64,000 nt of DNA from Bdellovibrionota bacterium (GCA_044356215.1 JBIKWQ010000003.1:953-64952), one strand, 5' to 3'; counted from the stretch's first letter, positions 5,109 to 50,516 are shown. Translations and numbers: made by a program. Notes: generated from the letters alone by a model not told the origin.

Positions 5109-5202
5109 GCTCGGCTCCGAGCGTCAAAAGCTCGGTATCTCGATGTTTTGTTAGTAACGGCGCGTTCGCGCTGTTACCGATAGGGTGTCGCAGTTCTTTA
5201 TC

Positions 5203-5288
5203 ACCACAGAGGACGCAGAGGACACAGAGAACGGCCATTTTATCGGCAATTATAAGGTTTTCTCTGTGTCCTCTGCGTCCTCTGTGGT
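5203..5288. repeat. perfect 29-bp inverted repeat (ACCACAGAGGACGCAGAGGACACAGAGAA / reverse complement) around a 27-nt loop; large hairpin or cruciform-capable element
   Basis: Arms at 5203-5231 and 5260-5288 are exact reverse complements. No confident CDS overlaps them. A 29-mer inverted repeat is far beyond chance expectation in 64 kb. Confidence 0.6.
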
Positions 5289-5389
5289 AAAAAATATTTT
5301 ACTAATTGTCTCAGCAACTTACCAAAAACACTGCGACGCCCTGTGTTACCGAGCAAATAATCGCTTAGGCGAGGTCTTGCCTCGGCGCT

Positions 5390-34814: not shown

Positions 34815-34820
34815 AACTCT

Positions 34821-35816
34821 TTAAAGCTCCTGACATCTCCGCAACACCTTCAAGGCTCTTCCGGAATTTATTGACTCCTCGGCTATAGCTAAACACTCAC
34901 TGAGATTGCCTCTAGCTCCTTGATAGAACCAGATGGCGGATCCCGCATTAGCGACGACACACGATTTTTGGGCCCGATCAGAGGAATTTCTTAAGATACC
35001 CTCAATCAATTTGGCGCTTTCTATCGCTGAGGTTGGAGCGGCAATCTGAGCCGGAGATAATTTTGGACTACTCAAGTCACCTGGTCTAAGCTCAAAAGAT
35101 CCCGAAGAGGAAACTACTCTTGCTGTATCAGTAAGAGACAGCTCATCGTATCCATCTAAAGAATGAACTACTGCGAACTTTTTGTTTCTGCGATTAAGTA
35201 GGTAGCCATATAGCCTTTGAAGCTCAAGATTGTATACGCCAGTATATTGAAAATCGATCGTGGCCGGATTGATTAGTGGCCCAAGGGCATTAAATACCGT
35301 GCGAAATCCCAACTCTTTGCGAACTGGCGCCAAGCTCCTAAAAGCCTGATTAAATAGCAGAGCGTGGATAAAGCACACCCCAGCTTCTGCTAGGGATCGT
35401 TTAAGATGTTCCTGTTCTCCAGAAAGCTTAATCCCTAAAGCCTCCAATACATTTGAGGAGCCGCATGATGATGAGACTGCTATATTACCGTGCTTTGCTA
35501 CTTTATAGCCCGCGCCCGCGACAACAAAGGCCGCTGTCGTAGAGATGTTAAACGAGCTTTTTCCGTCACCACCCGTTCCGCACATGTCGATTAGCTCAGC
35601 GCAATCTAAATCAATAGGTGTAGCCAATTCAGCCGCTGCTGCTGAAAATCCATCAAGCAGATCGACGTCTAACCCCCGGGTAGCTAATGCTGTTAGTAGC
35701 GCCGCTAGATATGTTTCTGTGTAGCGACCGCTGGCGATGGCTAACATAAGCTCGCGGCTCTCAGCTACGGAGAGTCGTCTACCTGCGACTATCTCTTTAA
35801 GCGATACTAAACTCAT
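34821..35816 (-). CDS. trpD: anthranilate phosphoribosyltransferase
   Basis: It has CGTGGDG and KHGN.AVSS motifs. It is 331 aa. Confidence 0.9.
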   Translation of the reverse strand: MSLVSLKEIVAGRRLSVAESRELMLAIASGRYTETYLAALLTALATRGLDVDLLDGFSAAAAELATPIDLDCAELIDMCGTGGDGKSSFNISTTAAFVVAGAGYKVAKHGNIAVSSSCGSSNVLEALGIKLSGEQEHLKRSLAEAGVCFIHALLFNQAFRSLAPVRKELGFRTVFNALGPLINPATIDFQYTGVYNLELQRLYGYLLNRRNKKFAVVHSLDGYDELSLTDTARVVSSSGSFELRPGDLSSPKLSPAQIAAPTSAIESAKLIEGILRNSSDRAQKSCVVANAGSAIWFYQGARGNLSECLAIAEESINSGRALKVLRRCQEL

Positions 35817-36391
35817 AATGCCGCGATCCGCTCTATTATCTGAGCCCCTAGCGGCGTCAGAATAGATTCAGGGTGAAACTGAACACCATACACTCTATGG
35901 ACTCTATGCCTAAGCGCCATGATCAGACCCGAATCATCTTCTGCTGTAATCTGAAGTTCATTAGTGGGAAAATCCTCTTTATCGACTACCCAGGAGTGAT
36001 AGCGGCCAACGTCGAATCTCTCGGGAAGCTCACCTAAAATAGGATCATCTTTAAAGAAACGTTTAATCGATGTTGCTTTACCGTGAACAGGTGAGGCGAT
36101 ATTTCTCAGTTTGGCCCCATAAATCTCTCCGATGCACTGGTGACCCAAACAAACCCCAAATATCGTCTTCGTCGCACCAAAGCTACGAACTATATCAGGC
36201 ATCAATCCCGCTTCCATCGGTATCCCCGGCCCCGGCGAGAGAACGATCTTTTTAAAAGGCTCCACATCGGCGAGCGCAAGTTGATCATTTCTCTTAACGT
36301 GAACATTGACGTTACCCACACCCCGCAGCATGTGCACCAGGTTATAAGTAAATGAGTCGTAGTTATCTATTAGCAGGATCTCTTGCATCAC
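35813..36391 (-). CDS. trpG: anthranilate synthase component II (glutamine amidotransferase)
   Basis: It has the class I amidotransferase triad (GVCLGHQ, then the His at HPES). It is 192 aa. Confidence 0.9.
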   Translation of the reverse strand: MMQEILLIDNYDSFTYNLVHMLRGVGNVNVHVKRNDQLALADVEPFKKIVLSPGPGIPMEAGLMPDIVRSFGATKTIFGVCLGHQCIGEIYGAKLRNIASPVHGKATSIKRFFKDDPILGELPERFDVGRYHSWVVDKEDFPTNELQITAEDDSGLIMALRHRVHRVYGVQFHPESILTPLGAQIIERIAAL

Positions 36392-37827
36392 AGCACCTCT
36401 CCCCTTGTCGCGCTCTCCGCCTTATCTATAGCTAATCTAAGCGCCCTAAGCTTTATATGAGCCTCAGCCAATTCAGATTCCGGTTTTGAATCAAAGACGA
36501 TCCCCATTCCCGCTTGATACGCTAGTGTTTGACCGACACTTAAGAAAGATCGGATCATAATCCCAAGTACCACATCACCATTAAAGCCGATAAATCCAAC
36601 ACAGCCGCCGTAGTGACCACGCCCGTGGGGCTCAATTCGATCAAGTATAGTCATAGCGCTGTGCTTTGGAGCGCCTGAAAGAGTCCCTATCGGGAAGGTG
36701 TCACATATGACTCTTAGTACCGTCTCTACAGATCGGTCCGGAAGATTACCTAAAACTTTTGATACTAGATGAATTAGGTGCGAATAGAAGTGCGTCTCGC
36801 GATACGCTGCCACTCTTACCTCATTTGCGTAACGACTGAGATCGTTCCGCGCGAGATCTACAAGCATCGAGTGCTCGGCGTTCTCTTTCGGATCCTCTAA
36901 AAGGCGCTTAGCCTCTCTTAGATCTAGCTCATCATCACCACTTTTCTGGTATGTGCCAGCTATTGGGAATATTCCGGCGACCCCTTCGGTGATTGAGATC
37001 TGCGCCTCTGGCGACGAACCGATTAAGCGGTAAGAGCCGTAATCACAGTAAAAGAGATAAGGAGATGGGTTTATTGATCGAAGCGCCCGATAAACCTGAA
37101 AGTCATCTCCCTCGTATCTCCGTAGATAACGCCTGGATGGCACAATCTGAAACACATCCCCGCGGGCTATGTGGCGTTTGCAGGAATTGATGAGACCAAG
37201 AAAGTCCTGGTCACTCTGTACCGACACCTCATCACCCACGACTTTAAATGGATAAACCCGCGCGTCCCCGGTGAAAGCGGCTCTAATAAACTCCTCACGA
37301 GCTCGGCGTGTATCAGAATTATCTTGAGTTGTGTTCTCGAGTACATACGCCTCACCCTTGAATGGATTACACGCAATCACGTAACGGAAGAGTGAGAAGT
37401 GTGCGTCTGACACCTCGAATCCATCTGGCGCCTTAGCTGTAAATTTTATCTGCTCAAGATATGGGATCGCTGACCAGGAGATATGTCCAAAAACTCCGGG
37501 AGTAACTCCCTTAGGGATATCTCTATTAGAGGTATCTACCTCAATACCACGCATAAATCCGCCAAGAGCTTTTGCCAGGCCAGTTGCTGGCTCAATCTCA
37601 AACTTCACCTCTTCATTGTCCTCATAGCGAATCGAGCAGCTTCCCTTATCGATTACACATTCAGCGATCGGATCACAGCAGATAAACGAGCGGCAATCTC
37701 CAGGACCGTGATAATCCGAACTCTCGAACAAAAAGACTCGTGAGTAGCGGTCCCTTAGTCGGAGATAAATAGCGGCAGGCGTGGTTAAATCGAGGGGAAC
37801 TGTCGTGAAAGATGGGGAGATACGCAT
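36388..37827 (-). CDS. trpE: anthranilate synthase component I
   Basis: It has the chorismate-binding C-terminal domain (SPE..I.I.R, GAPK, GGCVGF). It is 479 aa with ATG at 37827. Confidence 0.9.
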   Translation of the reverse strand: MRISPSFTTVPLDLTTPAAIYLRLRDRYSRVFLFESSDYHGPGDCRSFICCDPIAECVIDKGSCSIRYEDNEEVKFEIEPATGLAKALGGFMRGIEVDTSNRDIPKGVTPGVFGHISWSAIPYLEQIKFTAKAPDGFEVSDAHFSLFRYVIACNPFKGEAYVLENTTQDNSDTRRAREEFIRAAFTGDARVYPFKVVGDEVSVQSDQDFLGLINSCKRHIARGDVFQIVPSRRYLRRYEGDDFQVYRALRSINPSPYLFYCDYGSYRLIGSSPEAQISITEGVAGIFPIAGTYQKSGDDELDLREAKRLLEDPKENAEHSMLVDLARNDLSRYANEVRVAAYRETHFYSHLIHLVSKVLGNLPDRSVETVLRVICDTFPIGTLSGAPKHSAMTILDRIEPHGRGHYGGCVGFIGFNGDVVLGIMIRSFLSVGQTLAYQAGMGIVFDSKPESELAEAHIKLRALRLAIDKAESATRGEVL

Positions 37828-38016
37828 AAAATATAAGCCAGGTTAGGACCAGTAGAATAAAAAGAGTAGCTAAAAAATATGAGGCGCCGGGAATATGTAG
37901 GGGCTAGGCCCACCAGGAGTGGGATGAGATATTGCCCCATTGGGACTTATTTTTATGAGCTTTTGCTGGCTGAACACTCATTTTTATAAGATACCTGGAG
38001 TTACAACGCTGGTCAA
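37828..38016 (-). promoter_or_regulatory. trp promoter and attenuator region
   Basis: A -35 TTGACC (38016-38011), a 17-nt spacer and a -10 TATCTT (37993-37988) lie 6 nt before the leader ATG, which implies a leaderless transcript. The trp-codon hairpin is CCCAC-uccug-GUGGG. A U6 tract (37876-37871) is followed by a second U5 tract before trpE. Confidence 0.5.
37904..37981 (-). CDS. trpL: trp operon leader peptide (25 aa, tandem Trp codons at the C-terminus)
   Basis: The minus strand reads ATG AGT GTT CAG CCA GCA AAA GCT CAT AAA AAT AAG TCC CAA TGG GGC AAT ATC TCA TCC CAC TCC TGG TGG GCC TAG, which is MSVQPAKAHKNKSQWGNISSHSWWA. It ends 77 nt upstream of trpE. A U6 run follows. Confidence 0.6.
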   Translation of the reverse strand: MSVQPAKAHKNKSQWGNISSHSWWA

Positions 38017-38022
38017 GAAATA

Positions 38023-39459
38023 TTAGGGGATGTCTTCTAGGAGCTTTAACAGGGAGCGAAATTTTATTAGGGGGCTATTGTGGCTCTCCAGATATGAAGC
38101 GGCTTTATCATCACTAAAAGGAGCATTTAAATCATCCCATATTGGCCAAATCAGCGATTTATACATGTGAACAGCCGCCGCTCTCATCGCTAAATGCTTT
38201 AGCTCCTCTCTTTGCTGAGGACCTTTCTCATATCCATTCATGAAACTATCAAATAGGCTTAAGTCTATCTCCCCATTCCTTGGCCATCTGCTCCAAATAT
38301 ATAGTATCCATCCTAGCATTACAGGCTCTGGAACGATCGCAACCCTTTCTAAATCCAGCATCGCTACTCTGCCGGAACCATTATTTCTATCGTACTGCCA
38401 GTTTCCTAAATGCGGATCTGAATGAGTCAAACAACACCTGTGATTCAGATTAAATGTATCTTCATACCAACTACATAATCTCGTGAAATTATGAGTATTA
38501 AAATTTAAGAGCTTGAGCGTGGCTTTTAGCTGCGGAGATCCTGACAGCTCCCGATTCAGCAACTCCTCTTCGTGGCTAAAGAGTCTTGCGACTGTCGCGC
38601 CTATTTTTCCTCCGCTGACGGTATTGCCTGTAAAGCCATCACTCGACACATATCCGAGACCTTCCACTTTTATATCAGCAATGCGCCGCATGAGTTCACC
38701 GGCTTTGCGCACAGCGCTGTGTAAAAGGCTCGCGTCTTCATCGCTCTTAGTGTTTTCAGCTCTTAGCAAGATCGCTCTAATCGTCTCTCCAGGTGCAAAA
38801 GTAAAAAAAGTATGCAAAAAAGGGGCGCTAGTAATCAGCTTACAATCGATCTGATCATGCACCCCATGCTGCTTAAAAAACTTTGATATCCTGTATCTCT
38901 GCTTGAGGCGCTCAAAGCTATCAGACTCAGATTTCTTGGCAACTAGCGCCACTATCTGCGACCTATCATCCCGTAATGCCCAGAAACTCATACCTTCGCC
39001 AATGATCTTGAAATCTAACGGTGACTCGTCCTGACTCCTAATAACGCCCCCTGGCAGCACCCTTTTACTAGTTACTTTAAGCAACTCATTTAGGGCCTTC
39101 TCGCGGAAATTATTGAAGCCGCCTCTTAGCTCGGTATTGTCCTTTAATGAGCCCCTCTTCAGCTCCGAGTCCATCGCCGCCAGGCTCAGCGGGAGTTCAT
39201 AAAGCGCCTGCTCGCATCCTTCTCCCGCGTCTGATATCAGATCTATTTTATCCAATACCCTGACTAAAAGCCGCTGCAACGGAGAATCTTGAGCATGTGC
39301 ACCAACAAACTCTTCCAAAGCCTTTCGAGTTAAAGCTACATCTGCAGCTAAACCTCTAAAGCTATTCTTTAAAAATGACTGTGGAGACAACCTACGCTGC
39401 TCATTTTCTAAATGGGGTATGAAGTCCGGTCTTACACCCGAACGCTGATCGAACGCCAT
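38023..39459 (-). CDS. protein-kinase-like fold phosphotransferase (APH/ChoK-type), function unknown
   Basis: 478 aa. It has a catalytic-loop-like THSDPHLGNW (HxDxxxxN) followed by LDLE (DxE metal site), and a helical N-terminal region. Confidence 0.5.
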   Translation of the reverse strand: MAFDQRSGVRPDFIPHLENEQRRLSPQSFLKNSFRGLAADVALTRKALEEFVGAHAQDSPLQRLLVRVLDKIDLISDAGEGCEQALYELPLSLAAMDSELKRGSLKDNTELRGGFNNFREKALNELLKVTSKRVLPGGVIRSQDESPLDFKIIGEGMSFWALRDDRSQIVALVAKKSESDSFERLKQRYRISKFFKQHGVHDQIDCKLITSAPFLHTFFTFAPGETIRAILLRAENTKSDEDASLLHSAVRKAGELMRRIADIKVEGLGYVSSDGFTGNTVSGGKIGATVARLFSHEEELLNRELSGSPQLKATLKLLNFNTHNFTRLCSWYEDTFNLNHRCCLTHSDPHLGNWQYDRNNGSGRVAMLDLERVAIVPEPVMLGWILYIWSRWPRNGEIDLSLFDSFMNGYEKGPQQREELKHLAMRAAAVHMYKSLIWPIWDDLNAPFSDDKAASYLESHNSPLIKFRSLLKLLEDIP

Positions 39460-39603
39460 AATCCACAGAAGCTCAAAAAATACACGCTCTCTGCTTCATT
39501 CTCGCGCTCTTTTTAATACTAATCAAAATTTCTGTGTCGGGTTTAGGGCGTCCTAGACCTTATGAGGGTGGGATAGTTTGTTTTGGATCTAAACACTACG
39601 CAG

Positions 39604-39975
39604 GTGATTTTTGAAAAAATCACTCGCAATAGCAGGGCGAGCGCAATCTTGGCGCCTGCAGATCAGTAGTAGCCCATTTGCGTCGTAAAAGACAAAAAAC
39701 ACTCGAGCCGCAGCGCAGGACTATCTAGTCGTTGAAAGGCGTAAGACTATTGGTGTGTGGGTCGATTTTTAAACGGACAGGAACGCAAATTACTGGCAAA
39801 AGAGCTACGGCTTGAGCGCTATGCGTGCTTCTTGAGATAGAATTAAGTGCATATTTCTGCTCGACGCCTTCACACGCTCGGCACGTAGGAGTTTGTTGTC
39901 TTCTACGGCTCAACTTGGCTCCGCCAAGATTGCGCTCGCCCAGCTATCCTAATTCATTTTTTTCAAAAATGAATT
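39604..39975. repeat. approximately 370-bp element bounded by roughly 50-bp inverted repeats (MITE-like); each arm is an A/T palindrome plus GGGCGAGCGCAATCTTGGCG
   Basis: An exact 20-mer inverted repeat lies at 39636-39655 and 39921-39940. The adjacent ATTTTTGAAAAAAT-containing palindromes are GTGATTTTTGAAAAAATCAC at 39604-39623 and CCTAATTCATTTTTTTCAAAAATGAATTAGG at 39945-39975. The arms are about 75% identical over about 50 bp. Confidence 0.45.
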
Positions 39976-39984
39976 AGGCTGGGT

Positions 39985-41085
39985 TTATACCCCAACCTTC
40001 CCCACATACCCAGTCATCTCAAGATAACCAAATATCCCCTCATCCTCCGAGGTTACCGGCCCCTCCCAGTATTTAACTCCGTGCGCTGATTGATCATCCA
40101 AACCACCGCCAACTTCGCATTGATTAACTCTGGCCTTCAAAACTGCATCGATCCCCTCTGACGGAACCACTACACGCCACTGTATCGGATAATCAGCTCC
40201 GCTCGCCGCGCTCTTCCAATTAACTAAAGGTGTAATCTCAAAATCACTCGCGCTAAGCGCGCGCGTCCCTGTAAGGCTCCTTATGCCACCGGAAGCGAAA
40301 TCCTGCACTCCGTTTTTATTCCTTAGCCTAAACAACATTAAGCTTCGGCCGTCTTTTAAATTCAGACCAAACCAATCCCACCCGACCTGATCAGAGCTAA
40401 GTGAGTTAGTCATAAACTCGTGATCCATCCAGACTAAGCCAGATAAATCCCTCAACTTCCCCGCTCCCTCTCGTAAAGTGGCGCTTACTGCGATTCGCGG
40501 CATCGAGTAATACATTGATGCGCATGACTGACAAGCAGCCTTTTTACTTAATCCAAGTTCACCCTGCAACCACGGCGGACTCAGATCCCCACTTAAGACC
40601 CGCAGCTCCAGATCGAAACCTCTCTCCCCGTCTCGCACTGCAAAACGCGCGAAAAAACGATTCCCCACTGAGTCTATCGTCCAGTCACCTGAGTGAGCCG
40701 CGAGAGAATCATTAGCCACAGATGATATGCCCAGCGCACCTCCACCGACTCTCTTTGCATGATATGTTTTCTGTTTTGAGATATCAGTTAAAGCGGCGTG
40801 CGCCATGTACTCACTTATTATCTTACCTGACTTGCGATCTGAGCGCCTAAAGAAAGTAAGTTGGAATCCATACAAAGGCTTATCCTCGAACAGCTTGGCT
40901 TCCTTACTGAAGAGATGTCCAGTGTAGTACCACCACTCAGTCTGATATTGGTCATGGGCTCCATGATCTCGTGGGAAACTCCATTCATACCCCTTCTCAG
41001 CATGTTTTAACTCCTGCGCTATGACTAACGGGAGAGCTAAGATAATCGCGAAAAAAGCCGATAATACCGAATAAATCTTACTCAT
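39985..41085 (-). CDS. secreted lipocalin-like / CrtC (hydroxyneurosporene synthase)-like protein, AttH family
   Basis: It has a signal peptide and the motifs FPRDHGAHDQYQTEWWYYTGHLF, which are typical of the CrtC/AttH family. It is 366 aa. The start overlaps the end of the FtsX permease gene by 8 nt. Confidence 0.7.
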   Translation of the reverse strand: MSKIYSVLSAFFAIILALPLVIAQELKHAEKGYEWSFPRDHGAHDQYQTEWWYYTGHLFSKEAKLFEDKPLYGFQLTFFRRSDRKSGKIISEYMAHAALTDISKQKTYHAKRVGGGALGISSVANDSLAAHSGDWTIDSVGNRFFARFAVRDGERGFDLELRVLSGDLSPPWLQGELGLSKKAACQSCASMYYSMPRIAVSATLREGAGKLRDLSGLVWMDHEFMTNSLSSDQVGWDWFGLNLKDGRSLMLFRLRNKNGVQDFASGGIRSLTGTRALSASDFEITPLVNWKSAASGADYPIQWRVVVPSEGIDAVLKARVNQCEVGGGLDDQSAHGVKYWEGPVTSEDEGIFGYLEMTGYVGKVGV

Positions 41086-43630
41086 CTTCTAGCCTACCTG
41101 AAGTAACTATCTTCCTAACCAGAAAGTAACTAACTAAACTTGCCACGATTGTTACCGCGATCAAGAAAGCCGCGGACTCAAGCGCGGGCTCAAGACTCAC
41201 TTTAAATACAAGACTCCATCCAAACACCAGCGGATTGATATAGTCCGTTAAACACCACCCTATCCCTATACCGGCCAACACTCCAACAAAAGTCGCCATT
41301 GCGGAGATAAGAGTCGTCTCAATAACTAGCGAGAGCATCAAGGTTTTAGGCGCTACACCGATGACCTCTGCTATCCTTAACTCGCGCCGCCTCTCCCAGA
41401 TATATTGAGCCCCTGTCGATACCAATCCTAACAGCGCTAAGACAAACACGATCCAACGCACACTCTCTGTTACTCTAAAGGTTCTGTTAAATAGTGTTTC
41501 AACTAGATCGAAGAGCTCGCGCTGATCGCGGATACCGAGTGTCACTGGCAATTGACGTTTTAGACGCGATTTAATCCCCTCTAGCTCAACCGGATCCTTT
41601 AGATCGATCGTTAAACTATCTGGATAGTGATTCGGATATATACTCTCAAAATCCTCCTGATCGATCACTATTAATGGCGCCTCTGTCCCAAACTCTTGAA
41701 CTACCCCAACAACCTCAAAATCCCTCCCTTCTAGATGTACACGGCCACCGATATCGAGCCTTAGCTTTCTCACCGCGTTTTCACTTATAAGCGCTCGTCC
41801 GCGCCACGATATGTTGTCGCTTAAGCAGTGGCCATTGGTGAATCTATAGACACCCCTTACACATTGAGTCTTGAGGTTAGCCCCTCCCACCACTGTAGGT
41901 ATACTAAATGAGCTAACAGTTGTCTCAAAGTACGGGACGACCGCTTTTACCCCTGACAGCCCCTCAATCTCTCTGGATATTACTGGTTCTACTCGCCCAT
42001 CGTTACCACTGCCTGGCAGTGCCGATGAGATAAAGATATCTCCCGCTAATCTGGTGCCGCACCAGCCTCTAAGAGTCTCTCTAAAGCTACTTACCATCAA
42101 GGCGAGCCCTACCATCAAAGATATCGATACGCTCGCCGCGACTGCGCTTAGAATAAAGTTAGCGCCTGACTCTCTTAAGACCGACGCCGCTAAACGAACA
42201 CTCAATCGGGCTCGAAAGGGCGCGATAAATCTCGGTATGAGCTGTAACGCTAACGGCAGAGTCATAGCGGCCCCTAACAGGATCGCGGCGATACTGAGAT
42301 AAGCTAACACTGGTCGCTCAAAATAGATCAGCGCGAGTAGAACAAAGAGCGCGCTGAGGATCCCAAAACTAGCCGCGGTAGCGGCGAAGTTAAAGCCTAT
42401 CTTATGAATCTGCCTCTGCTCACAACGAGTGCCACGATAAGGCGGAAGGACTAGAACCTTTCTAGATCCTACTAGCGCCGCTATGGCTCCCAAACAAGTC
42501 ATGACTAGCGTTACTAACGCCGTATTCCAAAGGGAATTAACCCCATGCGCTTGGTAGAGAGCCACATTATATATCTCTCCAGCCGTCGAGCTTAGAAACC
42601 CACTAATCCTCGTCACTATCGGAGCGCCTAAAGTTAGTCCAATAAGCGAACCAAAAAAGCTAACCAGGGCCGCTTCTATTACCACCAACGCTAAGCACTC
42701 TAAGGGGGATGTCCCGATAGTCCTTAAGATTGCAAGTTCTCTTATTAATCCGCGCAGAGCTATCTGAGTCGCCTGTGAAATCAGTATCGCGCAAACTAGC
42801 GCTGTGATCGCCGCCATAATTAAGATATTAAAGCGGTACGCTGAAAGAAGCTGTTCTCCGCGCTCAATCGGCGCCGCTACGGATTCAACTCGAACCGGCG
42901 TACTATCAGGCGAGCAAGATAAGAGCCAGCTCCTCGTTAAATCAACAAGCTCTCGGCTGAAGTTGTTCTTCTCCGCGCCTGCGGCATACTGATAGAATCT
43001 AAGAGCTAACGTATCAACGGCGCCTACTTGACCTAGATCTGATAACGCGATCGCGAGATCGCTCTGAGCCGGAATCGTGTCACCCTGGGTGGCGCGGTAT
43101 ACCTCCAACTCAAATTCACTATTACTTGTGGTCAGCGATATCGTCTTAGAATCCCCGACTCCTAATTCATCAGCTAGATCACTGGCGATGAGCCGTTTGG
43201 GGGCTGCGGCTTCGTCGCTCAGCTGACTAAATAGATACAGAGCCGCCACCCTAACGGCCTTTGTTTTACCAGCTACAGAAACTACCCCAGCCTCACGTTT
43301 CAGAGCCAATACTTCAGCCTTGCTCGACAATTCTCTTAAACACGACGCGTACCTGGAAATCTCTAAACTGCCCCCGACCGGCGATATCAATACGTGGTAT
43401 GGACGCTCACCTAACGAGATTCCTCGTTCAAATGAATCAATACTCGCTAAACTAACCCTTAAAACCGCGCTGACAAGAGTCGCCGCTAGAGCCACGGCGA
43501 TAAAAGCCATCGCTGAACGGGCGGGGTCGGTAACGATCCTGCGTAAACTAAAGCGGAACCATAACCACACCGCTGACTTGAACGCTGATCTAACACCTGC
43601 CGGCCGAGATCGCTCCTCGTCACGTCGCAT
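41078..43630 (-). CDS. ABC transporter permease with two FtsX domains (MacB/YbbP-like)
   Basis: 850 aa. It has two repeats of a 4-TM FtsX-type domain, each with a large extracytoplasmic domain. It overlaps the ATPase gene by 11 nt. Confidence 0.85.
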   Translation of the reverse strand: MRRDEERSRPAGVRSAFKSAVWLWFRFSLRRIVTDPARSAMAFIAVALAATLVSAVLRVSLASIDSFERGISLGERPYHVLISPVGGSLEISRYASCLRELSSKAEVLALKREAGVVSVAGKTKAVRVAALYLFSQLSDEAAAPKRLIASDLADELGVGDSKTISLTTSNSEFELEVYRATQGDTIPAQSDLAIALSDLGQVGAVDTLALRFYQYAAGAEKNNFSRELVDLTRSWLLSCSPDSTPVRVESVAAPIERGEQLLSAYRFNILIMAAITALVCAILISQATQIALRGLIRELAILRTIGTSPLECLALVVIEAALVSFFGSLIGLTLGAPIVTRISGFLSSTAGEIYNVALYQAHGVNSLWNTALVTLVMTCLGAIAALVGSRKVLVLPPYRGTRCEQRQIHKIGFNFAATAASFGILSALFVLLALIYFERPVLAYLSIAAILLGAAMTLPLALQLIPRFIAPFRARLSVRLAASVLRESGANFILSAVAASVSISLMVGLALMVSSFRETLRGWCGTRLAGDIFISSALPGSGNDGRVEPVISREIEGLSGVKAVVPYFETTVSSFSIPTVVGGANLKTQCVRGVYRFTNGHCLSDNISWRGRALISENAVRKLRLDIGGRVHLEGRDFEVVGVVQEFGTEAPLIVIDQEDFESIYPNHYPDSLTIDLKDPVELEGIKSRLKRQLPVTLGIRDQRELFDLVETLFNRTFRVTESVRWIVFVLALLGLVSTGAQYIWERRRELRIAEVIGVAPKTLMLSLVIETTLISAMATFVGVLAGIGIGWCLTDYINPLVFGWSLVFKVSLEPALESAAFLIAVTIVASLVSYFLVRKIVTSGRLEDE

Positions 43631-44303
43631 CTACTATCGCCCCATCTCGCATGCGAATAACTCTATTACATCTTGCTACCGCGCTCTCACTGTGAGTCGC
43701 CATTATTATCGGCGTCCCCTGGCGGTTCACATCTTGAAGTAAAGTGAGCACCGAGGCGCCAGAAACGGAATCAAGATTGCCCGTAGGTTCATCCGCAATT
43801 AGCAAAGCTGGAGGTCGCGCTACCGCTCTCGCAATCGCGACTCTCTGGGTCTCTCCGCCGGAGAGAGTCGCTGGCACAACCTTTAGCCGGTGAGACAGCC
43901 CCAAGGTACTCAAGATCTCATGAGATCTTCTAAGCGATTCTCTTTCTCCCCATCCATTCAAGATACAAGGCAGCATTACATTCTCCTCAACCGTCAAAGT
44001 TGATAGGAGATTAAAGCTCTGAAAAACATAACCTATCCGCGCACGTCGATACTCTCTTAGCTTCTTGTCGGTGAGATCTCTTAGCGACACCCCCTCAAAC
44101 ACGATCTCTCCAGAGCTGGGGATATCTATTAAACCTAGCAAGCTAAGCAGGGTGCTCTTACCACATCCAGAGGGTCCAATTAGCGCGATAAAATCCGGTC
44201 GGTTCACCACTAAAGAAACTGAGCGGACCGCGTTTACCTCGCGCTCCCCATCCTTGAAAACTCGGACCAACTCACGTGCCTCTAAAAGTGCGGCTTCAGC
44301 CAT
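43620..44303 (-). CDS. ABC transporter ATP-binding protein (MacB/LolD-type)
   Basis: It has Walker A (GPSGCGKST), the ABC signature (LSGGETQRVAIARA) and Walker B (LLIADEPTGNLD). It is 227 aa. Confidence 0.9.
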   Translation of the reverse strand: MAEAALLEARELVRVFKDGEREVNAVRSVSLVVNRPDFIALIGPSGCGKSTLLSLLGLIDIPSSGEIVFEGVSLRDLTDKKLREYRRARIGYVFQSFNLLSTLTVEENVMLPCILNGWGERESLRRSHEILSTLGLSHRLKVVPATLSGGETQRVAIARAVARPPALLIADEPTGNLDSVSGASVLTLLQDVNRQGTPIIMATHSESAVARCNRVIRMRDGAIVDAT

Positions 44304-45519
44304 CGCTATTAACCTTTTTTCCTGAGTGTCCAGGCAATCTAATGTGTCGTGCCACTGTGCGCATCACTGTCTGTTCTTTGGACATAGCGAAGATCCAACC
44401 ACCACAGATCTTAAATGAACTACCCTCGATTCCAAAGCGCTCTAGAGACGCTGATATACGCCTCTTCTCAATCGGCTGAGAGAGTTGATAAAGCGACGCG
44501 AATTTCTCAAAGCACTCAGCCGCGCTAAACCACCCCTTAAAGCGCTCCCGTGGCTCGCGCGCTCTTCGTATCAACTCAGCGAACTCAGAGAAGGCTCTGG
44601 CGTGAACCGCAACACGTCTCCCTTTAACCTCATAAAAGCCCATCAGATCTCTATGTTTGGGGGTTAATTTAAATGATCCCAACTTATCACGCGGCGCTCT
44701 CTCTAACTCACCTCTTAAGAACGAGCTTAAGTGTCGTCCGTGCAACTCAATCACTCGATTTAAAACACCACGCTCCTCTATAAAGACAAATTTACCCGAC
44801 GCCCTTAGACCTTTATTTTTAGAATTAAGTAGATCATAAGGAACCACCATCGGAAAGCTCCTTGGTACCCTACGAGCGCGCTTCGCCAAATTTACCAGCG
44901 CTTTAAATGATACAAGTAAACTACTCTCGCAACCTGGATATCTACGTTGAAGGAACCGCGAGCCAATGGCGATCTGCCTAAATGATTTAATAACAGATTC
45001 AGGAATCAGCAGAGGTCCATCGCGCCTAGCTATCTTAGCCTCTAAGCCGAGTCGGCCTTGGGATAAACTCACTCCGGCCAGCCCAGAAAGCTCTGGATCC
45101 GCTGGATGAAGGTAATCAGCGGCGGGAAGAAGTGAACCCAAGTAGTATGGTAGGCCAAACTTTTGAGGGGCTGGAATCGTGACTGTGATTAGAGATCCAG
45201 TTAATACACTCTTACCTTCTACAAGATACTGCCTCTCTGGGGTGGCGCCATCAAATAGCCACTGCTTAGTTTTCTCGATACTCTTATCGGCGATCCCTTG
45301 GCTCTCTTGAAGCATCCACTTCTGAAAGGTCTCGACCACGCACTCGAAAGCCGATTCTGAAACGAATAGTCCCTTAGGAACAACACGAATATCGTTCCTG
45401 CGAGCCTCAAACCCCTTGTTACCTTTGAGCGACTCAATGAATTTAACTAGCGACGCCTCGCGCGCCTGCTGCGCCTGTCCCTCTGCCATAAGAACCCCTT
45501 CCTTAGGGAAGGCCGGCAA
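44296..45519 (-). CDS. hypothetical basic protein, first gene of the ABC/CrtC-like cluster
   Basis: 407-aa ORF with no TM segment and a high Arg/Lys content. I recognised no family. It overlaps the downstream ATPase gene by 8 nt. The real start is probably the second Met (MAEGQAQQ, at 45489), because the first codons overlap the palindromic element. Confidence 0.5.
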   Translation of the reverse strand: MPAFPKEGVLMAEGQAQQAREASLVKFIESLKGNKGFEARRNDIRVVPKGLFVSESAFECVVETFQKWMLQESQGIADKSIEKTKQWLFDGATPERQYLVEGKSVLTGSLITVTIPAPQKFGLPYYLGSLLPAADYLHPADPELSGLAGVSLSQGRLGLEAKIARRDGPLLIPESVIKSFRQIAIGSRFLQRRYPGCESSLLVSFKALVNLAKRARRVPRSFPMVVPYDLLNSKNKGLRASGKFVFIEERGVLNRVIELHGRHLSSFLRGELERAPRDKLGSFKLTPKHRDLMGFYEVKGRRVAVHARAFSEFAELIRRAREPRERFKGWFSAAECFEKFASLYQLSQPIEKRRISASLERFGIEGSSFKICGGWIFAMSKEQTVMRTVARHIRLPGHSGKKVNSDG

Positions 45520-45699
45520 AACCTACCCGTAGCGAGAAAGTGGAGGTTGAGTTGATATTCGATTTTCGAGATGGGAAAAAACCGCAAGTGTATCCACTGT
45601 GATACATTGAGGATTTTTTCCCATCTCGAAAAGTCGAAGAGCAGCTCAAGATCCGCTTTCGCAGTAGGGAGGGGTTTTGCCGGCCTTCCTTAGGTTTCA
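45497..45699. repeat. nested palindromic element of about 200 bp (MITE-like): outer imperfect inverted repeat, a 19-bp perfect inner inverted repeat and a central 6-bp inverted repeat
   Basis: The outer arms GGAAGGCCGGCAAAACC (45507-45523) and GGTTTTGCCGGCCTTCC (45673-45689) are exact over 17 bp. The inner arms TTTTCGAGATGGGAAAAAA (45563-45581) and TTTTTTCCCATCTCGAAAA (45614-45632) are perfect. The centre is TGTATC-cactgt-GATACA. The motif CTTCCTTAGG occurs at both outer flanks. Confidence 0.45.
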
Positions 45700-45747
45700 A
45701 ACCCTCTATAAGTACCCTTTTTCGCGGCTTTCAGCTACAGTCACCTC

Positions 45748-46893
45748 GTGCAACAGCGCCTTAACTGCCAAATTGATGGTCGAGATTCCTGGTCCAAGGC
45801 CAGAGCTCTGACGATCTCTACTATCCATGGAACCGTAGAGACACCGATATTTATGCCGGTGGCTACCCAAGGCGCGCTGCGCCACATAGATCTCTCCTTC
45901 GCTGACGATCTCGGATACCAGGTATTGCTGGCAAACACATATCACCTAATGATCCGACCTGGCGTTGAACATTTTCAGAGTAACGGCGATCTGCATTCCT
46001 TTATGCGTTGGCCACGTTCTGTGCTAACCGATTCTGGAGGGTTCCAGCTCTTCTCACTTAGTAAGCAGATCCGCATAACCGAGGAAGGCGCCTCATTCAG
46101 AAGCTACACAGATGGCCGCAAGATGCTCCTATCGCCCGAAAGCAGCATCGCGACTCAACGAGCGATCGGCAGCGATATCATGATGGTATTAGATCACTGC
46201 ATCCCGTCGACCTCACCCATAACGGATCTGCGAAAGGCACTTCAGCTAACTACTCGGTGGGCCAAGAGATCTCTTGAGGCACGCGGAGAGTCCAGGCAGG
46301 CGCTCTTTGGAATAGTACAAGGTGGTTGCAACCAAGAGCTAAGGAGCGAGAGTGCCTCGGAGATAACTCAATTAGCTTTCGATGGGTTCGCGCTTGGCGG
46401 GTTAGCAGTCGGCGAGACTCGAGCCGAGAGGGAAGATACGATAGAGTTTGCGGCTCCCCTCTTACCAGATGACAGACCCCGCTATGTAATGGGAATAGGC
46501 ACCCCGATCGATCTCCTTGAGGCGGTGCGTCGCGGGGCGGATATGTTCGATTGCATCCTGCCGACTGCTTTGGCAACTCAAGGTGTAGCTTTTACGAGCC
46601 TAGGAAAAGTGGATCTAAGGAGAGGAGTTTACAAAAACGTAAATTCGCCACTTGATAAAGATTGCCCATGCCGAACATGTCAGAGATTCACGAGAGCCTA
46701 CCTGCATCATTTAGTTAAAGCGAAGGAATCGATCGTTCAACAGCACATCAGTGTCCATAACCTAACTTTCTACAGGTCTCTGATGCATAGAATGCGCCAG
46801 GCTATTCTTGGGAATAGCTTTAGCGAAATGTACGGCAAAGAGGCTGATAAGATAGCAGCGATGGATCTTGAGTTTCCAACGGTAACTGAATGA
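45748..46893 (+). CDS. tgt: queuine tRNA-ribosyltransferase
   Basis: It has the catalytic region VLTDSGGFQ and the zinc site (CPCRTCQRFTRAYLHHL). It is 381 aa. Confidence 0.9.
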   Translation: MQQRLNCQIDGRDSWSKARALTISTIHGTVETPIFMPVATQGALRHIDLSFADDLGYQVLLANTYHLMIRPGVEHFQSNGDLHSFMRWPRSVLTDSGGFQLFSLSKQIRITEEGASFRSYTDGRKMLLSPESSIATQRAIGSDIMMVLDHCIPSTSPITDLRKALQLTTRWAKRSLEARGESRQALFGIVQGGCNQELRSESASEITQLAFDGFALGGLAVGETRAEREDTIEFAAPLLPDDRPRYVMGIGTPIDLLEAVRRGADMFDCILPTALATQGVAFTSLGKVDLRRGVYKNVNSPLDKDCPCRTCQRFTRAYLHHLVKAKESIVQQHISVHNLTFYRSLMHRMRQAILGNSFSEMYGKEADKIAAMDLEFPTVTE

Positions 46894-47236
46894 CCGCAGC
46901 TCTCATATCACTCATGGCGGCCGCGACGATCTTTGGGACGAGCGGTTTGTTTGTAAAGTCACTTGGACTTTCCGCGCTTGTGATAGCGTCTTTTAGGTTA
47001 CTGACTCCTGCTCTCATCTTATTCGCCACGAGCCCAAAGCTGGGGCTATCAATAATTAAGTCTCCTAGCAGACCTCTTCTATTAGCATCTAACCTTACCG
47101 CGCTACGGGTATTTTTCTGGGTTGTCGCGTTGAAATACGCATCTATCAGTAAATCGGGATGTGCTGTATGTAATTATGCTAGGGGAGGAGCTGACTTATA
47201 GAACCGTTGTTGGTGGCACTTTGATTTTATTATCGG
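46890..47236 (+). pseudogene. EamA/DMT-family transporter fragment (N-terminal 3-4 helices, then a +1 frameshift into a C-terminal helix); pseudogene or half-size DMT with a frameshift
   Basis: The ORF 46890-47201 reads like an EamA N-terminus (...ALKYASISKS). The +1 frame is open from about 47135 to 47236 and reads ...LTYRTVVGGTLILLSAWYARYTRG*, which looks like an EamA C-terminal helix. Together they give about 115 aa, versus about 290 aa for a full 10-TM EamA protein. Confidence 0.4.
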
Positions 47237-47356
47237 CTTGGTATGCGAGGTACACCCGAGGATGAGGGGGGTAATCTAGCCATGTCGTCGTATACGGTGC
47301 CGCATAACGACGACATGCACGTTTCACTCAATAATTACTGGGGAGGTTTATGATTT

Positions 47357-47917
47357 CTATCTGGGCTTTCTCGAAAGTTGCCCCTTGTACTTTACTTGAT
47401 AGCATACGTAAAAATTACCAAGTCGTCTTCCACTCCCTCTCTCTCTACAACCAACATAGATGCTGTGTTCTGCCTTTGCAATTTCATCATTAAATTTGGC
47501 AATCTTCGTATCAAGGTTGAACACTCCACACGCAGCTGCCTGTCTGCCTCTTGGAGTTGGATCCCTGTCTGATGGCGCCGAAACTAGGTTAAAGGCAGGA
47601 GGGAGATCTTTATACCTAGACATTAGAAATCCCGTTCCTGGTCTTCCATTTACAGTACCGTTAGCAAGTATATCACTTGATCCACCGAGGCGAGGTCCTT
47701 CTACCTCTAGAGGGAGACTTTTGCCGAAATTTAATTTTCTAGCTTGGTTACAGAATCTACCATCGATTACCACCTGCCTTTTTACAAAATCGACACTCCC
47801 AGAAAAGCTCGCATTGCCATATTTTTGAGAATCTATCGTATCGATAGTATCCGGCCGTGATTGTGCAAAACAGTTTGAAGATAACAACATACAAACACTT
47901 ACAATTATCTTTTTCAC
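47357..47917 (-). CDS. secreted hypothetical protein (signal peptide)
   Basis: 186 aa with an N-terminal signal MKKIIVSVCMLLSSNCFAQ. There is no recognised domain. It sits in an AT-rich stretch (47202-48132). Confidence 0.5.
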   Translation of the reverse strand: MKKIIVSVCMLLSSNCFAQSRPDTIDTIDSQKYGNASFSGSVDFVKRQVVIDGRFCNQARKLNFGKSLPLEVEGPRLGGSSDILANGTVNGRPGTGFLMSRYKDLPPAFNLVSAPSDRDPTPRGRQAAACGVFNLDTKIAKFNDEIAKAEHSIYVGCRERGSGRRLGNFYVCYQVKYKGQLSRKPR

Positions 47918-48132
47918 AATACCTCCATATTTATCCGCTCTTATATAATGTAACTTATTGGCAGTATTTTACAAGTCAGTACTGGCCTTGTCAATTAAAT
48001 AATGCTCACATTTTACATTATTAGCTAGTATGTTGATTTAATTGGAATCTAGTGCGCGGGCTGACGGCTCTGAAGTATTTTGAGGTCGCGGTGTCCGAAC
48101 CTAAATTGAACCACGGCTGGTACATCCACAGC

Positions 48133-49233
48133 TCATTCAGCATCCCTACCAAAAAACTCCACCACCATCCTCTCAAGCCAGCTATCCCTCATGGTTAAAC
48201 TATCTATGAATCCTACATGACCTCCATAGCGAGGCGTCTCTAAAGTAATCAACCTAGAATTACTAGCCTGCTGATAAGGAAAACACTCCGGAGAAAGAAA
48301 CGGATCATCAAGAGCTGAAACCAGGAGTAGCGGCACCCTTACTGAATCCAGAAAACGGGAACCACTACACACGTCCCAGTAGTGGTCCACTGAATTAAAT
48401 CCATGTACTGGTGCTGTGTAACGGCTGTCGAACTCAGCGAATGAGGTGATATCATCAACGCCACTAGCGTCGATTAAATCTGGAAACATCGCAGCTTTCG
48501 ATTTAACTCTCTCCCGTAACGGGCGCATAAGATACTGCATGTACAAACGTCTAGATCGCCGCGCCAAGGTCAACGCCGACCCTCGCAGATCAAGTGGCGC
48601 CGATACCGAAACCGCCGCCATGATCTTGGCCGGTACCGACTTGCCTTGCTCACCCAGATACTTACACAGGATATTTCCGCCGATACTGATCCCGACTAAA
48701 AAGATCGAGGACTCCGGGTAGCACGCGTGCGCGTGGTCTACCACTGCCTTTAGGTCCTCGCTTTTCCCGCTATGATACCAAGATGGAAGCTTGTTCGGTT
48801 TAGATCCGCACCCGCGCATATTCCAGGTTAATGTCAGATAACCCGCTTGAGTTAGCGCCTTAGTTAGTCCAACTACATAACCACTATTAATCGATCCCTC
48901 CAGACCGTGGGTGATAATGGCTAGCCTATTATCCTTCCGATCGTTTAGGTCCCTCCCGAACCAGGCTAATTCAAGAGAGTCCCCGTCACTTAAATCAAGT
49001 GATTCTAATTGGGGGTGTAATTTATGGCTTTTGGGGCGAAACAGCGCCGGAAATATCGTCTGAATTGAGGGGGAGCGGAGCCAGACTGGGGGAGAAAATG
49101 TAGAGACTTCTAATGCAGGCATACCGCATAAGCTAAAAGGGGCTTCCGGATTCTGACCGTTACCCACAAGTAGTATTCGAGAGGAAAGATGCGTTGATAA
49201 TAATCTTGGAATTAGATCCGTCCTGCCAGGCAT
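48133..49233 (-). CDS. alpha/beta-fold hydrolase, YheT-like (COG0429)
   Basis: It has the HGLEGS motif, an RGCGSKPN loop and a nucleophile elbow GISIGGN. The real start is probably the internal MPALEVS. Confidence 0.75.
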   Translation of the reverse strand: MPGRTDLIPRLLSTHLSSRILLVGNGQNPEAPFSLCGMPALEVSTFSPPVWLRSPSIQTIFPALFRPKSHKLHPQLESLDLSDGDSLELAWFGRDLNDRKDNRLAIITHGLEGSINSGYVVGLTKALTQAGYLTLTWNMRGCGSKPNKLPSWYHSGKSEDLKAVVDHAHACYPESSIFLVGISIGGNILCKYLGEQGKSVPAKIMAAVSVSAPLDLRGSALTLARRSRRLYMQYLMRPLRERVKSKAAMFPDLIDASGVDDITSFAEFDSRYTAPVHGFNSVDHYWDVCSGSRFLDSVRVPLLLVSALDDPFLSPECFPYQQASNSRLITLETPRYGGHVGFIDSLTMRDSWLERMVVEFFGRDAE

Positions 49234-49382
49234 GGCTCGACATCTCTAATACTTCACTTTTCCCCTCCCCCTCTTTTCTCTCGCCGCTCTCTTTGTACAA
49301 AAAGGACCTGCTGAGCTTTTTCATTTAAACACCCGGATTAGGGGCGAGCGATAAACCCGCGCCCTATCCGGCTGCAACCGCT

Positions 49383-50465: not shown

Positions 50466-50516
50466 AATAACCTCTCTTAATTTTTACTAATTATACCAAT
50501 TACTACTTAATAACTA

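What the first reader, a model, noticed from the sequence alone, without database searches (positions are those of the whole stretch)
38023..45519. Minus-strand cluster: hypothetical protein, ABC ATPase, double-FtsX permease and CrtC/AttH-like lipocalin, followed by a kinase-fold protein
Four genes overlap start-to-stop by 8-11 nt (44296-45519, 43620-44303, 41078-43630, 39985-41085). They are followed, after a repeat-containing spacer, by a PKL-fold phosphotransferase. The ATPase, double-FtsX permease and CrtC-like trio resembles the poorly understood AttE-AttFG-AttH arrangement. The leading 407-aa basic protein and the trailing kinase-like protein are not part of any described version that I know. 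The cluster is bracketed by two inverted-repeat elements. This is a plausible envelope lipid or isoprenoid export and modification system of unknown substrate.
Basis: partly seen in the sequence, partly recalled or inferred. Interest (0 to 1): 0.55.

Follow-up and report, generated by a model that had tools for sequence, protein, structure and literature searches.

The report
AttEFGH-type lipid ABC module plus unrelated neighbours
The cluster is a known but functionally unsolved three-gene membrane-lipid transporter module (ATPase, fused FtsX permease, secreted AttH lipocalin) in an uncultured freshwater Bdellovibrionota genome. The two "extra" genes are a resident conserved gene and a strain-variable accessory kinase gene, not dedicated parts of the system.

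Summary
The ORFs, the 8/11/8-nt overlaps, the domain calls and both inverted repeats are real. The ATPase, double-FtsX permease and CrtC/AttH lipocalin form a bona fide AttE-AttFG-AttH-type module. The same overlapping trio occurs on Agrobacterium, Burkholderia and Microvirga plasmids, and the literature describes it as M. tuberculosis Rv0986-8 and Nitrosomonas NE1404-6.

The five-gene system is not supported.
- **397-aa protein.** The true start is the ATG at 45489. It belongs to a conserved, very basic family with no confident fold match. It keeps its place between nrdAB/tgt and trpE in relatives that lack the transporter, and distant members sit in unrelated contexts.
- **Kinase-like gene.** It is absent, with its 525-nt spacer, from the nearest transporter-bearing relative. 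In otherwise ~99%-identical strains it is an island of deep divergence (dS 0.90 against 0.02-0.05 in the flanks). One haplotype carries it broken.
- **Inverted repeats.** Both are unrelated foldback insertions missing from that relative, so they do not delimit a mobile unit.

The best mechanism, by analogy with YbbAP-TesA, is a Type VII ABC extractor handing a hydrophobic, probably isoprenoid, substrate to periplasmic AttH. This is a new member of a known kind, of modest interest.

The parts
45504..45692 (.). About 190-nt near-perfect foldback (hairpin) element in the tgt/hyp397 divergent intergenic region. It is an insertion relative to the sister genome L032. Its 3' end abuts and partly pairs with the Shine-Dalgarno sequence of the 397-aa gene.
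   Evidence: 63-nt arms plus an inner 32-nt pair. (dG -104 kcal/mol, z -13). (about 190 nt absent from L032). (no copy in any fetched locus).
44296..45489 (-). 397-aa conserved, very basic (pI 10.1) cytoplasmic protein of unknown function, here called hyp397. It is a resident gene of this clade and is translationally coupled to the ATPase gene by an 8-nt overlap. The finder's TTG at 45519 is probably not the start.
43620..44303 (-). ABC ATPase of the Type VII (MacB/LolD/YbbA) class; AttE-like.
   Evidence: ABC_tran 1.3e-32. (best NCBIfam hits YbbA, DarD, FtsE and LolD, all below equivalog cut-offs). (PDB hits: an uncharacterised ABC ATPase 5xu1 3.8e-53, MacB 1.7e-52, YbbA 3.1e-50, LolD 7e-49).
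41078..43630 (-). 850-aa fused double-FtsX permease (AttFG-like). It has about 10 predicted TM helices and two large extracytoplasmic domains (about residues 58-266 and 512-719; the second is a MacB_PCD).
   Evidence: FtsX x2, MacB_PCD. (hydropathy). (collinear with the Agrobacterium and Microvirga AttFG-type permeases: 22-25% identity, E 1e-11 and 4e-21).
39985..41085 (-). 366-aa secreted AttH/CrtC-like protein with two lipocalin-like domains. It has an N-terminal signal peptide (MSKIYSVLSAFFAIILALPLVIA|QE).
   Evidence: CrtC 1.1e-36, Lipocalin_9 1.2e-33. (2ICH 'putative AttH' 1.3e-41). (one N-terminal hydrophobic segment). (conserved trio).
39460..39984 (-). 525-nt spacer. It contains a terminator-like hairpin directly after attH (39948-39978 and 39976-39998). 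It then has a ~360-nt foldback element spanning 39608-39968 (47-nt arms 39608-39654 and 39922-39968). About 150 nt of kinase-gene leader follow. The spacer is part of the ~1.96-kb kinase cassette that L032 lacks.
   Evidence: (terminator-like site). (z -7.4). (99% identical in L028/L029/L031). (absent from L032/L033). (no Rfam family).
38023..39459 (-). 478-aa APH-fold kinase-like protein. It has a ~140-aa helical N-terminal extension, intact HxDxxxxN (HSDPHLGN) and a D-L-E metal-binding motif. It is a strain-variable accessory gene and an island of deep allelic divergence.
   Evidence: APH 26.7 bits, above the 23.2 cut-off. (motifs kept in both alleles). (only two database relatives). (dS 0.90 against 0.02-0.05 in the flanks). 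(broken in L043). (absent in L032/L033).
37988..38016 (-). Promoter-like TTGACC-17-TATCTT just after the kinase stop codon and upstream of trpE. It is conserved in L032, where it follows attH directly. It marks the downstream edge of the inserted cassette.
   Evidence: site. (alignment with the L032 attH-trpE spacer).

Best explanation
The region is a composite of three things with different histories.

**(1) The functional core is a three-gene AttE/AttFG/AttH-type Type VII ABC module.** It has a MacB/LolD-class ATPase. It has a single-chain permease with two FtsX modules, about 10 TM helices and two periplasmic domains. It has a signal-peptide-bearing AttH protein built of two lipocalin-like barrels. 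Inferred mechanism, by analogy with YbbAP-TesA and LolCDE-LolA:
- ATP binding and hydrolysis in the cytoplasm is mechanotransmitted to the periplasmic domains.
- These lift a hydrophobic molecule out of the outer leaflet of the inner membrane.
- The molecule is presented to AttH, which either carries it onward or, like its CrtC, kievitone-hydratase and Hgs relatives, adds water to an isoprenoid double bond.

**(2) The 397-aa gene is a resident, strongly constrained, basic cytoplasmic protein of this Bdellovibrionota clade.** The transporter module sits directly behind it and is translationally coupled to it. The protein does not depend on the transporter.

**(3) The kinase-like gene is an accessory cassette.** With its 525-nt foldback-containing leader it forms a ~1.96-kb cassette lodged exactly between the attH stop codon and the trp promoter. 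It is present, replaced by a deeply divergent allele, broken or absent in different strains.

**Shown:** gene content, homology, synteny, insertion boundaries, divergence pattern. **Inferred:** substrate class, hand-off to AttH, any hydratase activity.
For: **Trio.**
- Domains; ATPase class; 10-TM, two-loop topology.
- AttH matches 2ICH.
- The same overlapping ATPase / FtsX permease / lipocalin trio is on Agrobacterium pAt, Burkholderia and Microvirga plasmids.
- Permease homology.
- Literature: attE-H operon and M. tuberculosis Rv0986-8 (PMC3982062); NE1406/AttH fold with ABC association (PMC2954199); a Type VII ABC with a periplasmic partner extracting hydrophobic compounds (PMC12646458); AttH-like proteins as isoprenoid hydratases (bioRxiv 10.1101/2025.10.20.683597; PMC4717167).

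**hyp397 is independent of the transporter.**
- Synteny table of 27 genome loci.
- A neighbour-joining tree places the transporter in only one subclade.
- Unrelated genes fill the slot elsewhere.
- Distant family members sit in unrelated contexts.
- It is the most conserved gene of the region (96% aa, dN 0.017, against 75-92% aa for its neighbours).

**The kinase is accessory.**
- Absent in L032/L033 and L014.
- Flanks are ~99% identical but the gene body only ~70% identical in L028-L031.
- dS 0.90, dN/dS 0.32.
- A 118-nt deletion splits it in L043.
- It has only two database relatives.
Against: - No substrate, binding or activity evidence exists for this or any AttEFGH module.
- Physical contact between the permease and AttH was not modelled (no multimer tool).
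- In the L001-L004 relatives, ATPase and permease occur without an adjacent attH. AttH is therefore not an obligatory neighbour even in this clade.
- The 8-nt hyp397/ATPase overlap is kept in every transporter-bearing locus examined. A functional link in those genomes cannot be excluded.
- The permease shows no sequence-detectable match to any YbbP chain. The YbbAP analogy is architectural only.
Confidence: 0.7

Rival explanations
1. One reading: all five genes form one dedicated envelope lipid or isoprenoid export-and-modification system. The 397-aa protein is a new cytoplasmic component and the kinase modifies the substrate.
For: All five genes are on the same strand. The first four overlap start-to-stop. 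The hyp397/ATPase overlap recurs in all transporter-bearing relatives. The attH / 525-nt spacer / kinase arrangement recurs in L028-L031.
Against: hyp397 persists without the transporter in most relatives and in unrelated contexts further out. The kinase is absent from L032/L033 and L014, broken in L043, and separated by a terminator-like hairpin and a foldback insertion. L028-L031 are the same population (about 99% identity in the flanks), so they are not independent evidence of synteny. Neither gene accompanies the trio in the Agrobacterium, Burkholderia or Microvirga records.
Confidence: 0.08
2. The segment is a mobile or horizontally acquired island delimited by the two inverted-repeat elements.
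For: Two long inverted repeats flank the four-gene block. The transporter has a patchy distribution on the hyp397 tree. The M. tuberculosis trio is reported as horizontally acquired (PMC3982062).
Against: The two repeats share no sequence. Each is a self-contained foldback. L032/L033 carry the same operon in the same place with neither repeat. No transposase or integrase ORF lies between them. GC content is unremarkable.
Confidence: 0.04
3. The ATPase-permease pair is a MacB-, Bce- or Lol-type efflux or trafficking pump for peptides, antibiotics or lipoproteins, and AttH is a bystander.
For: ATPase similarity to MacB, LolD and BceA is as strong as to YbbA. L001-L004 have the pair without an adjacent attH.
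Against: No adaptor (HlyD/MacA), BceS-type kinase or LolA/B gene is in the cluster. The permease/attH 8-nt overlap is conserved across three proteobacterial classes and in this clade. BceB lacks the first periplasmic domain (PMC12646458), whereas this permease has two large loops.
Confidence: 0.12
4. The kinase-like gene is a small-molecule resistance or detoxification phosphotransferase (APH/MPH-like), maintained as a strain-specific accessory trait.
For: The Pfam APH hit is above the gathering score and the catalytic motifs are intact in both alleles. The presence, absence, broken and divergent-allele pattern is typical of accessory genes.
Against: There is no match to any NCBIfam resistance model or to any PDB kinase sequence at E<=10. 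It has an unusual ~140-aa helical N-terminal extension. The AF2 model was too poor (pLDDT 46.6) to classify it.
Confidence: 0.25

Closest known systems
Agrobacterium attE-attF/attG-attH operon (pAt plasmids) and its counterparts M. tuberculosis Rv0986-Rv0987-Rv0988 and Nitrosomonas NE1404-NE1406
   Same: Same three-gene order and overlapping junctions. A ~220-245-aa MacB-class ATPase, a ~800-850-aa fused double-FtsX permease, and a ~355-370-aa AttH protein with CrtC-N plus Lipocalin_9 domains (PMC3982062; PMC2954199).
   Different: It is divergent: AttH 30-37% identity, permease 22-25%. It is chromosomal, in an uncultured Bdellovibrionota lineage. It is translationally coupled upstream to an unrelated resident gene. 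No GDSL hydrolase is adjacent, unlike pAt. The function of the known systems is itself unresolved (adhesion and virulence phenotypes only).
E. coli YbbAP-TesA (Type VII ABC transporter-lipid hydrolase complex; PMC12646458)
   Same: Same architecture: a separate MacB-class ATPase, a single-chain permease with a ~10-helix double-FtsX fold and two periplasmic domains, and a secreted partner protein acting on hydrophobic molecules. The ATPase matches YbbA at 3.1e-50. YbbA is the top NCBIfam hit.
   Different: The partner is a two-lipocalin AttH protein, not a GDSL esterase. The ATPase scores 208 bits against the 336-bit YbbA equivalog cut-off. The permease has no phmmer match to any YbbP chain even at E<=10. 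It is not an orthologue.
CrtC carotenoid 1,2-hydratase, kievitone hydratase and archaeal Hgs (AttH-like hydratases)
   Same: Shares the Pfam CrtC N-terminal lipocalin domain. The family adds water to isoprenoid C=C bonds without cofactors (PMC4717167; bioRxiv 10.1101/2025.10.20.683597).
   Different: The protein here is secreted and is coupled to an ABC transporter. No carotenoid or GDGT genes are in the neighbourhood examined. The catalytic His/Trp/Tyr/Asp positions were not checked.
APH / choline-kinase-type phosphotransferases (Pfam PF01636)
   Same: The Pfam hit is above the gathering score. It has an HxDxxxxN catalytic loop and a D-x-E metal-binding motif.
   Different: It is 478 aa with a ~140-aa helical N-terminal extension. 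No subfamily assignment is possible. It has only two database relatives, both from the same population.

Membership tests
AttE/AttFG/AttH-type ABC module | MacB/LolD/YbbA-class (Type VII) ABC ATPase encoded first | tested here: met
   ABC_tran 1.3e-32. Top NCBIfam hits YbbA, DarD, FtsE and LolD. PDB hits MacB, YbbA and LolD at 1e-49 to 1e-53.
AttE/AttFG/AttH-type ABC module | Single ~800-850-aa permease with two FtsX modules, homologous to AttF+AttG | tested here: met
   FtsX x2 plus MacB_PCD. About 10 TM segments and two ~200-aa loops. Collinear BLASTP with the Agrobacterium pAt permease (E 1e-11) and the Microvirga permease (E 4e-21).
AttE/AttFG/AttH-type ABC module | AttH protein (CrtC-N plus Lipocalin_9 double barrel) encoded immediately downstream, overlapping the permease gene | tested here: met
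   Pfam hits. 2ICH 'putative AttH' at 1.3e-41. 8-nt overlap. Same arrangement in L034-L036.
AttE/AttFG/AttH-type ABC module | AttH is exported to the periplasm | tested here: met
   A single N-terminal hydrophobic segment (residues 4-22) followed by an A-Q-E cleavage-like site. This rests on inspection, not on a dedicated predictor.
YbbAP-TesA | ATPase is a YbbA equivalog | tested here: not met
   NF007879 YbbA scores 208.5 bits against a 336-bit cut-off.
YbbAP-TesA | Permease is a YbbP orthologue | tested here: not met
   phmmer against all PDB chains at E<=10 returns only FtsX, YtrF, LolC and LolF. YbbA chains of the same entries are in the copy searched.
YbbAP-TesA | Periplasmic GDSL/SGNH hydrolase partner (TesA) | tested here: not met
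   No SGNH/GDSL protein was found among the ORFs examined between 33996 and 53828. The partner position is occupied by AttH.
CrtC carotenoid 1,2-hydratase | CrtC N-terminal lipocalin domain | tested here: met
   PF07143 at 1.1e-36, residues 49-225.
CrtC carotenoid 1,2-hydratase | Catalytic His239/Trp241/Tyr266/Asp268 (R. gelatinosus numbering; PMC4717167) | not tested
A W-M-D-H-E motif at about residues 218-222 was seen by eye only.
CrtC carotenoid 1,2-hydratase | Embedded in a carotenoid biosynthesis gene cluster | tested here: not met
   The neighbours are trpEGDC, tgt, an alpha/beta hydrolase and nrdAB. No crt genes lie within 33996-53828.
APH phosphotransferase family (PF01636) | Pfam score above gathering threshold, plus the HxDxxxxN catalytic loop and a downstream Asp motif | tested here: met
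   26.7 bits against a 23.2 cut-off. HSDPHLGN and MLDLER are conserved in both alleles.
APH phosphotransferase family (PF01636) | Assignable to a characterised subfamily (aminoglycoside, macrolide, choline, homoserine or MTR kinase) | tested here: not met
   No NCBIfam hit. No PDB sequence hit at E<=10. The AF2 model had pLDDT 46.6 and was unusable.
MITE / foldback mobile element (both inverted-repeat elements) | Terminal inverted repeats, and presence/absence polymorphism between related genomes | tested here: met
   (inverted repeats and folds). (both absent in L032/L033).
MITE / foldback mobile element (both inverted-repeat elements) | Multiple copies at different genomic sites | tested here: not met
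   Each is unique in the 64-kb window. The only copies in the fetched loci are at the same site. None were found in viral contigs. The whole genome was not available.
MITE / foldback mobile element (both inverted-repeat elements) | Target-site duplication | tested here: inconclusive
   CCTAAGGAAGG occurs at both ends of the 45504-45692 element but overlaps the arms themselves.

The most novel reading that the evidence does not exclude
The 397-aa protein may be a new kind of cytoplasmic partner or regulator of a Type VII ABC ATPase in the genomes where the two genes are translationally coupled. Supporting facts: the family has 170 clusters, no confident fold match, only weak BECR/RelE-like domain resemblance, pI 10.1, and it is the most constrained gene in the region. 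Alternatively, and independently, the orphan kinase may be a target of balancing or diversifying selection. That would fit a strain-specific effector, immunity or resistance determinant of a possibly predatory bacterium, kept as deeply divergent alleles at a fixed chromosomal slot.
Probability: 0.12. Interest if true: 0.55.

Novelty: new member of a known kind. Interest (0 to 1): 0.3.

Why it matters
AttEFGH-type modules are widespread and include the virulence-linked M. tuberculosis Rv0986-8, yet no substrate is known. The 2025 YbbAP-TesA structure gives a concrete template: an extractor plus a periplasmic partner. Placing AttH in the partner role yields a testable model. This locus adds a divergent Bdellovibrionota example but no new principle.

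The by-products may be more useful.
- A strongly conserved, basic protein family of about 400 aa with no confident fold match, restricted as far as seen to this lineage.
- A clean natural example of a gene-sized island of ancient allelic divergence (dS about 30 times that of the flanks), with presence, absence and pseudogene variants, in a freshwater population.

Tried and rejected
- **Rfam** at E<=1 over 37000-47000 gave only a spurious plant miRNA hit on the hairpin.
- **PADLOC defence models** gave nothing for hyp397, AttH or the kinase.
- **Internal repeats in hyp397.** hhalign of sub-alignments found none.
- **Kinase.** There was no PDB sequence hit at E<=10. The AF2 model from 3 sequences had pLDDT 46.6 and was not used for fold search. 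A profile re-search and a metagenome scan returned only the same population.
- **Foldback elements.** Exact-pattern scans of viral contigs and of all fetched loci found no extra copies. Calling them 'MITE' therefore remains an inference from presence/absence polymorphism.
- **DGR-type hypervariation of the kinase** was considered and rejected. Divergence spans about 1.27 kb, includes heavy synonymous change (dS 0.90), and shows mosaic tracts typical of recombination.
- **The TTG at 45519 as the hyp397 start** was rejected on homologue alignment and because it lies inside the hairpin.

Full report
**Observation.** The minus strand carries ORFs at 44296-45519, 43620-44303, 41078-43630, 39985-41085 and 38023-39459, exactly as described. 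I read the junctions directly. ATGGCTGA is shared by the first two genes (8 nt). The second and third overlap by 11 nt and the third and fourth by 8 nt. Pfam gives the following:
- ABC_tran for the 227-aa protein.
- Two FtsX modules plus a MacB periplasmic core domain for the 850-aa protein.
- CrtC-N plus Lipocalin_9 for the 366-aa protein.
- A weak APH hit, above threshold, for the 478-aa protein.
- Nothing for the leading ORF.

The flanks are housekeeping genes. Downstream lie trpE-trpG-trpD-trpC. Upstream lie a divergent tgt, then an alpha/beta hydrolase and nrdB-nrdA. One correction: homologues of the leading protein all start at the position of the ATG at 45489 (397 aa). The TTG at 45519 lies inside an upstream hairpin.

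**Source organism.** Twenty-seven genome loci encoding the 397-aa protein all come from uncultured freshwater MAGs labelled Bdellovibrionota, Bdellovibrionales, delta-proteobacteria or 'Pseudomonadota'.

**The core trio.** The 366-aa protein matches the crystal structure 2ICH ('putative AttH', NE1406) at 1.3e-41. It has an N-terminal signal peptide. A tblastn search of plasmids finds 138 records. Three were inspected: Agrobacterium fabrum pAt (the original att locus), Burkholderia sp. YI23 and Microvirga ossetica. In each, the homologue is the third gene of an overlapping ATPase / ~800-850-aa FtsX permease / lipocalin trio. The window's permease aligns collinearly with the Agrobacterium and Microvirga permeases. 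Hydropathy gives about ten TM segments and two ~200-residue external loops.

The literature already describes this trio. It is known as attE-H in Agrobacterium and as the horizontally acquired, virulence-associated Rv0986-Rv0988 of M. tuberculosis (PMC3982062). The NE1406 structure paper notes the systematic association of the family with LolD-like ABC ATPases and proposes a lipid role (PMC2954199).

**Mechanism.** The ATPase belongs to the Type VII (MacB/LolD/YbbA) class. The closest characterised architecture is E. coli YbbAP-TesA. [quoted passage not shown] They present them to a periplasmic partner enzyme (PMC12646458). Here the partner position is held by AttH. Characterised relatives of AttH (CrtC, kievitone hydratase, archaeal Hgs) hydrate isoprenoid double bonds (PMC4717167; bioRxiv 10.1101/2025.10.20.683597).

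I therefore favour an extractor-plus-AttH model, with AttH acting as carrier or hydratase. This is inference. The permease is not a YbbP orthologue (no phmmer match at E<=10). The ATPase scores below the YbbA equivalog cut-off. No interaction or activity was tested.

Synteny is decisive.
- The backbone nrdA-nrdB-(variable)-hyp397-(variable)-trpEGD is conserved.
- The transporter follows hyp397 only in one subclade: the window, L032/L033, L001-L004 and L014. L026, which was left out of the tree, also carries it.
- In L007-L010, L012, L013, L016 and L024, trpE follows directly.
- In L005, L017 and L019-L023, unrelated genes follow.
- Distant family members lie beside GcpE/CrcB, aminotransferase/glycosyltransferase genes, or the MsbA-KdtA-LpxK genes.

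Between the window and L032, hyp397 is the most constrained gene of the region (96% aa, dN 0.017, against 75-92% aa for its neighbours). It is thus a resident gene with its own, unknown, probably nucleic-acid-related function. The 8-nt coupling to the ATPase is kept wherever the transporter is present. That leaves a small chance of a secondary functional link.

**The kinase-like gene.** Both alleles keep HSDPHLGN and the D-L-E motif. The protein has no NCBIfam, PDB or PADLOC match. It has only two relatives among 5.8 billion proteins, even with a profile and a metagenome scan.

In L032/L033 (hyp397 96% identical) the operon runs hyp397-ATPase-permease-attH and then, after 209 nt, trpE. The 525-nt spacer and the kinase gene are missing. 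Homology resumes right after the kinase stop codon at the conserved trp promoter.

In L028-L031 the flanks are about 99% identical to the window, and the spacer has 5 mismatches in 560 nt. The gene body from about 39290 to 38020 has 17-64 differences per 100 nt. Codons 56 to the end give dS 0.90 and dN/dS 0.32, against dS 0.02-0.05 in attH and trpEGD. That is an old allele moved by recombination rather than recent hypermutation.

A third haplotype (L043) has the window-type allele split by a ~118-nt deletion, plus a mosaic tract. The kinase gene is therefore a dispensable, strain-variable cassette and not a component of the transporter.

**The inverted repeats.** The 45504-45692 element is a ~190-nt near-perfect hairpin (dG -104 kcal/mol, z -13). 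It is inserted just upstream of the hyp397 Shine-Dalgarno sequence and is absent from L032. The spacer element (arms 39608-39654 and 39922-39968) is a ~360-nt foldback (z -7.4) that travels with the kinase cassette. The two share no sequence. Each is single-copy in all the data available. They do not delimit a unit, because L032 has the operon without either.

**Verdict.** The AttEFGH reading of the trio is confirmed. The extended five-gene system and the 'bracketing' are not supported. This is a new member of a known kind, of modest interest (0.3). The side observations may deserve their own follow-up: a conserved family of unknown fold, and a deep-divergence accessory kinase.

Noticed in passing
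window 38020-39290 (kinase gene body) vs L028-L031, L043: This is a gene-sized island of ancient allelic divergence. dS is 0.90 inside against 0.02-0.05 in the flanking genes of otherwise ~99%-identical strains. Mosaic tracts are present. One haplotype (L043) carries a ~118-nt deletion (window 38557-38439) that splits the ORF.
   Followed up: yes
window 44296-45489; L032 10001-11194: hyp397 is the most conserved gene in the region between the window and its sister genome (96% aa, dN 0.017, dS 0.25). By comparison trpE is 92%, the ATPase 90%, trpD 86%, AttH 81% and the permease 75%. It keeps linkage to nrdA-nrdB in every subclade of the hyp397 tree.
   Followed up: partly
L001-L004 (e.g. L003 3283-11739): In the 70-74%-identity relatives the ATPase and permease follow hyp397 but no attH is adjacent. 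L003 instead has a 1669-aa DUF11/DUF7927 repeat surface protein. L002 has an EamA transporter and L004 an Lnb_N protein. The partner of the Type VII pump may differ there.
   Followed up: partly
L034 6996-7643 (Agrobacterium fabrum pAt): An SGNH/GDSL hydrolase gene lies convergent to, and immediately after, attH in the original att locus. TesA, the periplasmic partner of YbbAP, belongs to the same enzyme family. This hints that AttEFGH and YbbAP-TesA systems may be functionally related.
   Followed up: no
window 5197-5294: Another long intergenic inverted repeat (35-nt arms, 94% complementary, 28-nt loop), unrelated in sequence to the two near the cluster. Long palindromic elements may be common in this genome.
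   Followed up: no
window 45495-45512: The Shine-Dalgarno region of hyp397 (AAGGAAGGGG) can pair with the CCTTCC at the 3' end of the inserted hairpin element. The insertion may therefore affect translation initiation of hyp397 and the coupled transporter genes.
   Followed up: no
window 47357-47917 (minus) and 46890-47201 (plus): A 186-aa ORF has no Pfam hit. A 103-aa ORF has only a sub-threshold EamA hit and may be a remnant of the EamA transporter gene seen at the corresponding place in L002. Both lie between tgt and the alpha/beta hydrolase gene.
   Followed up: no
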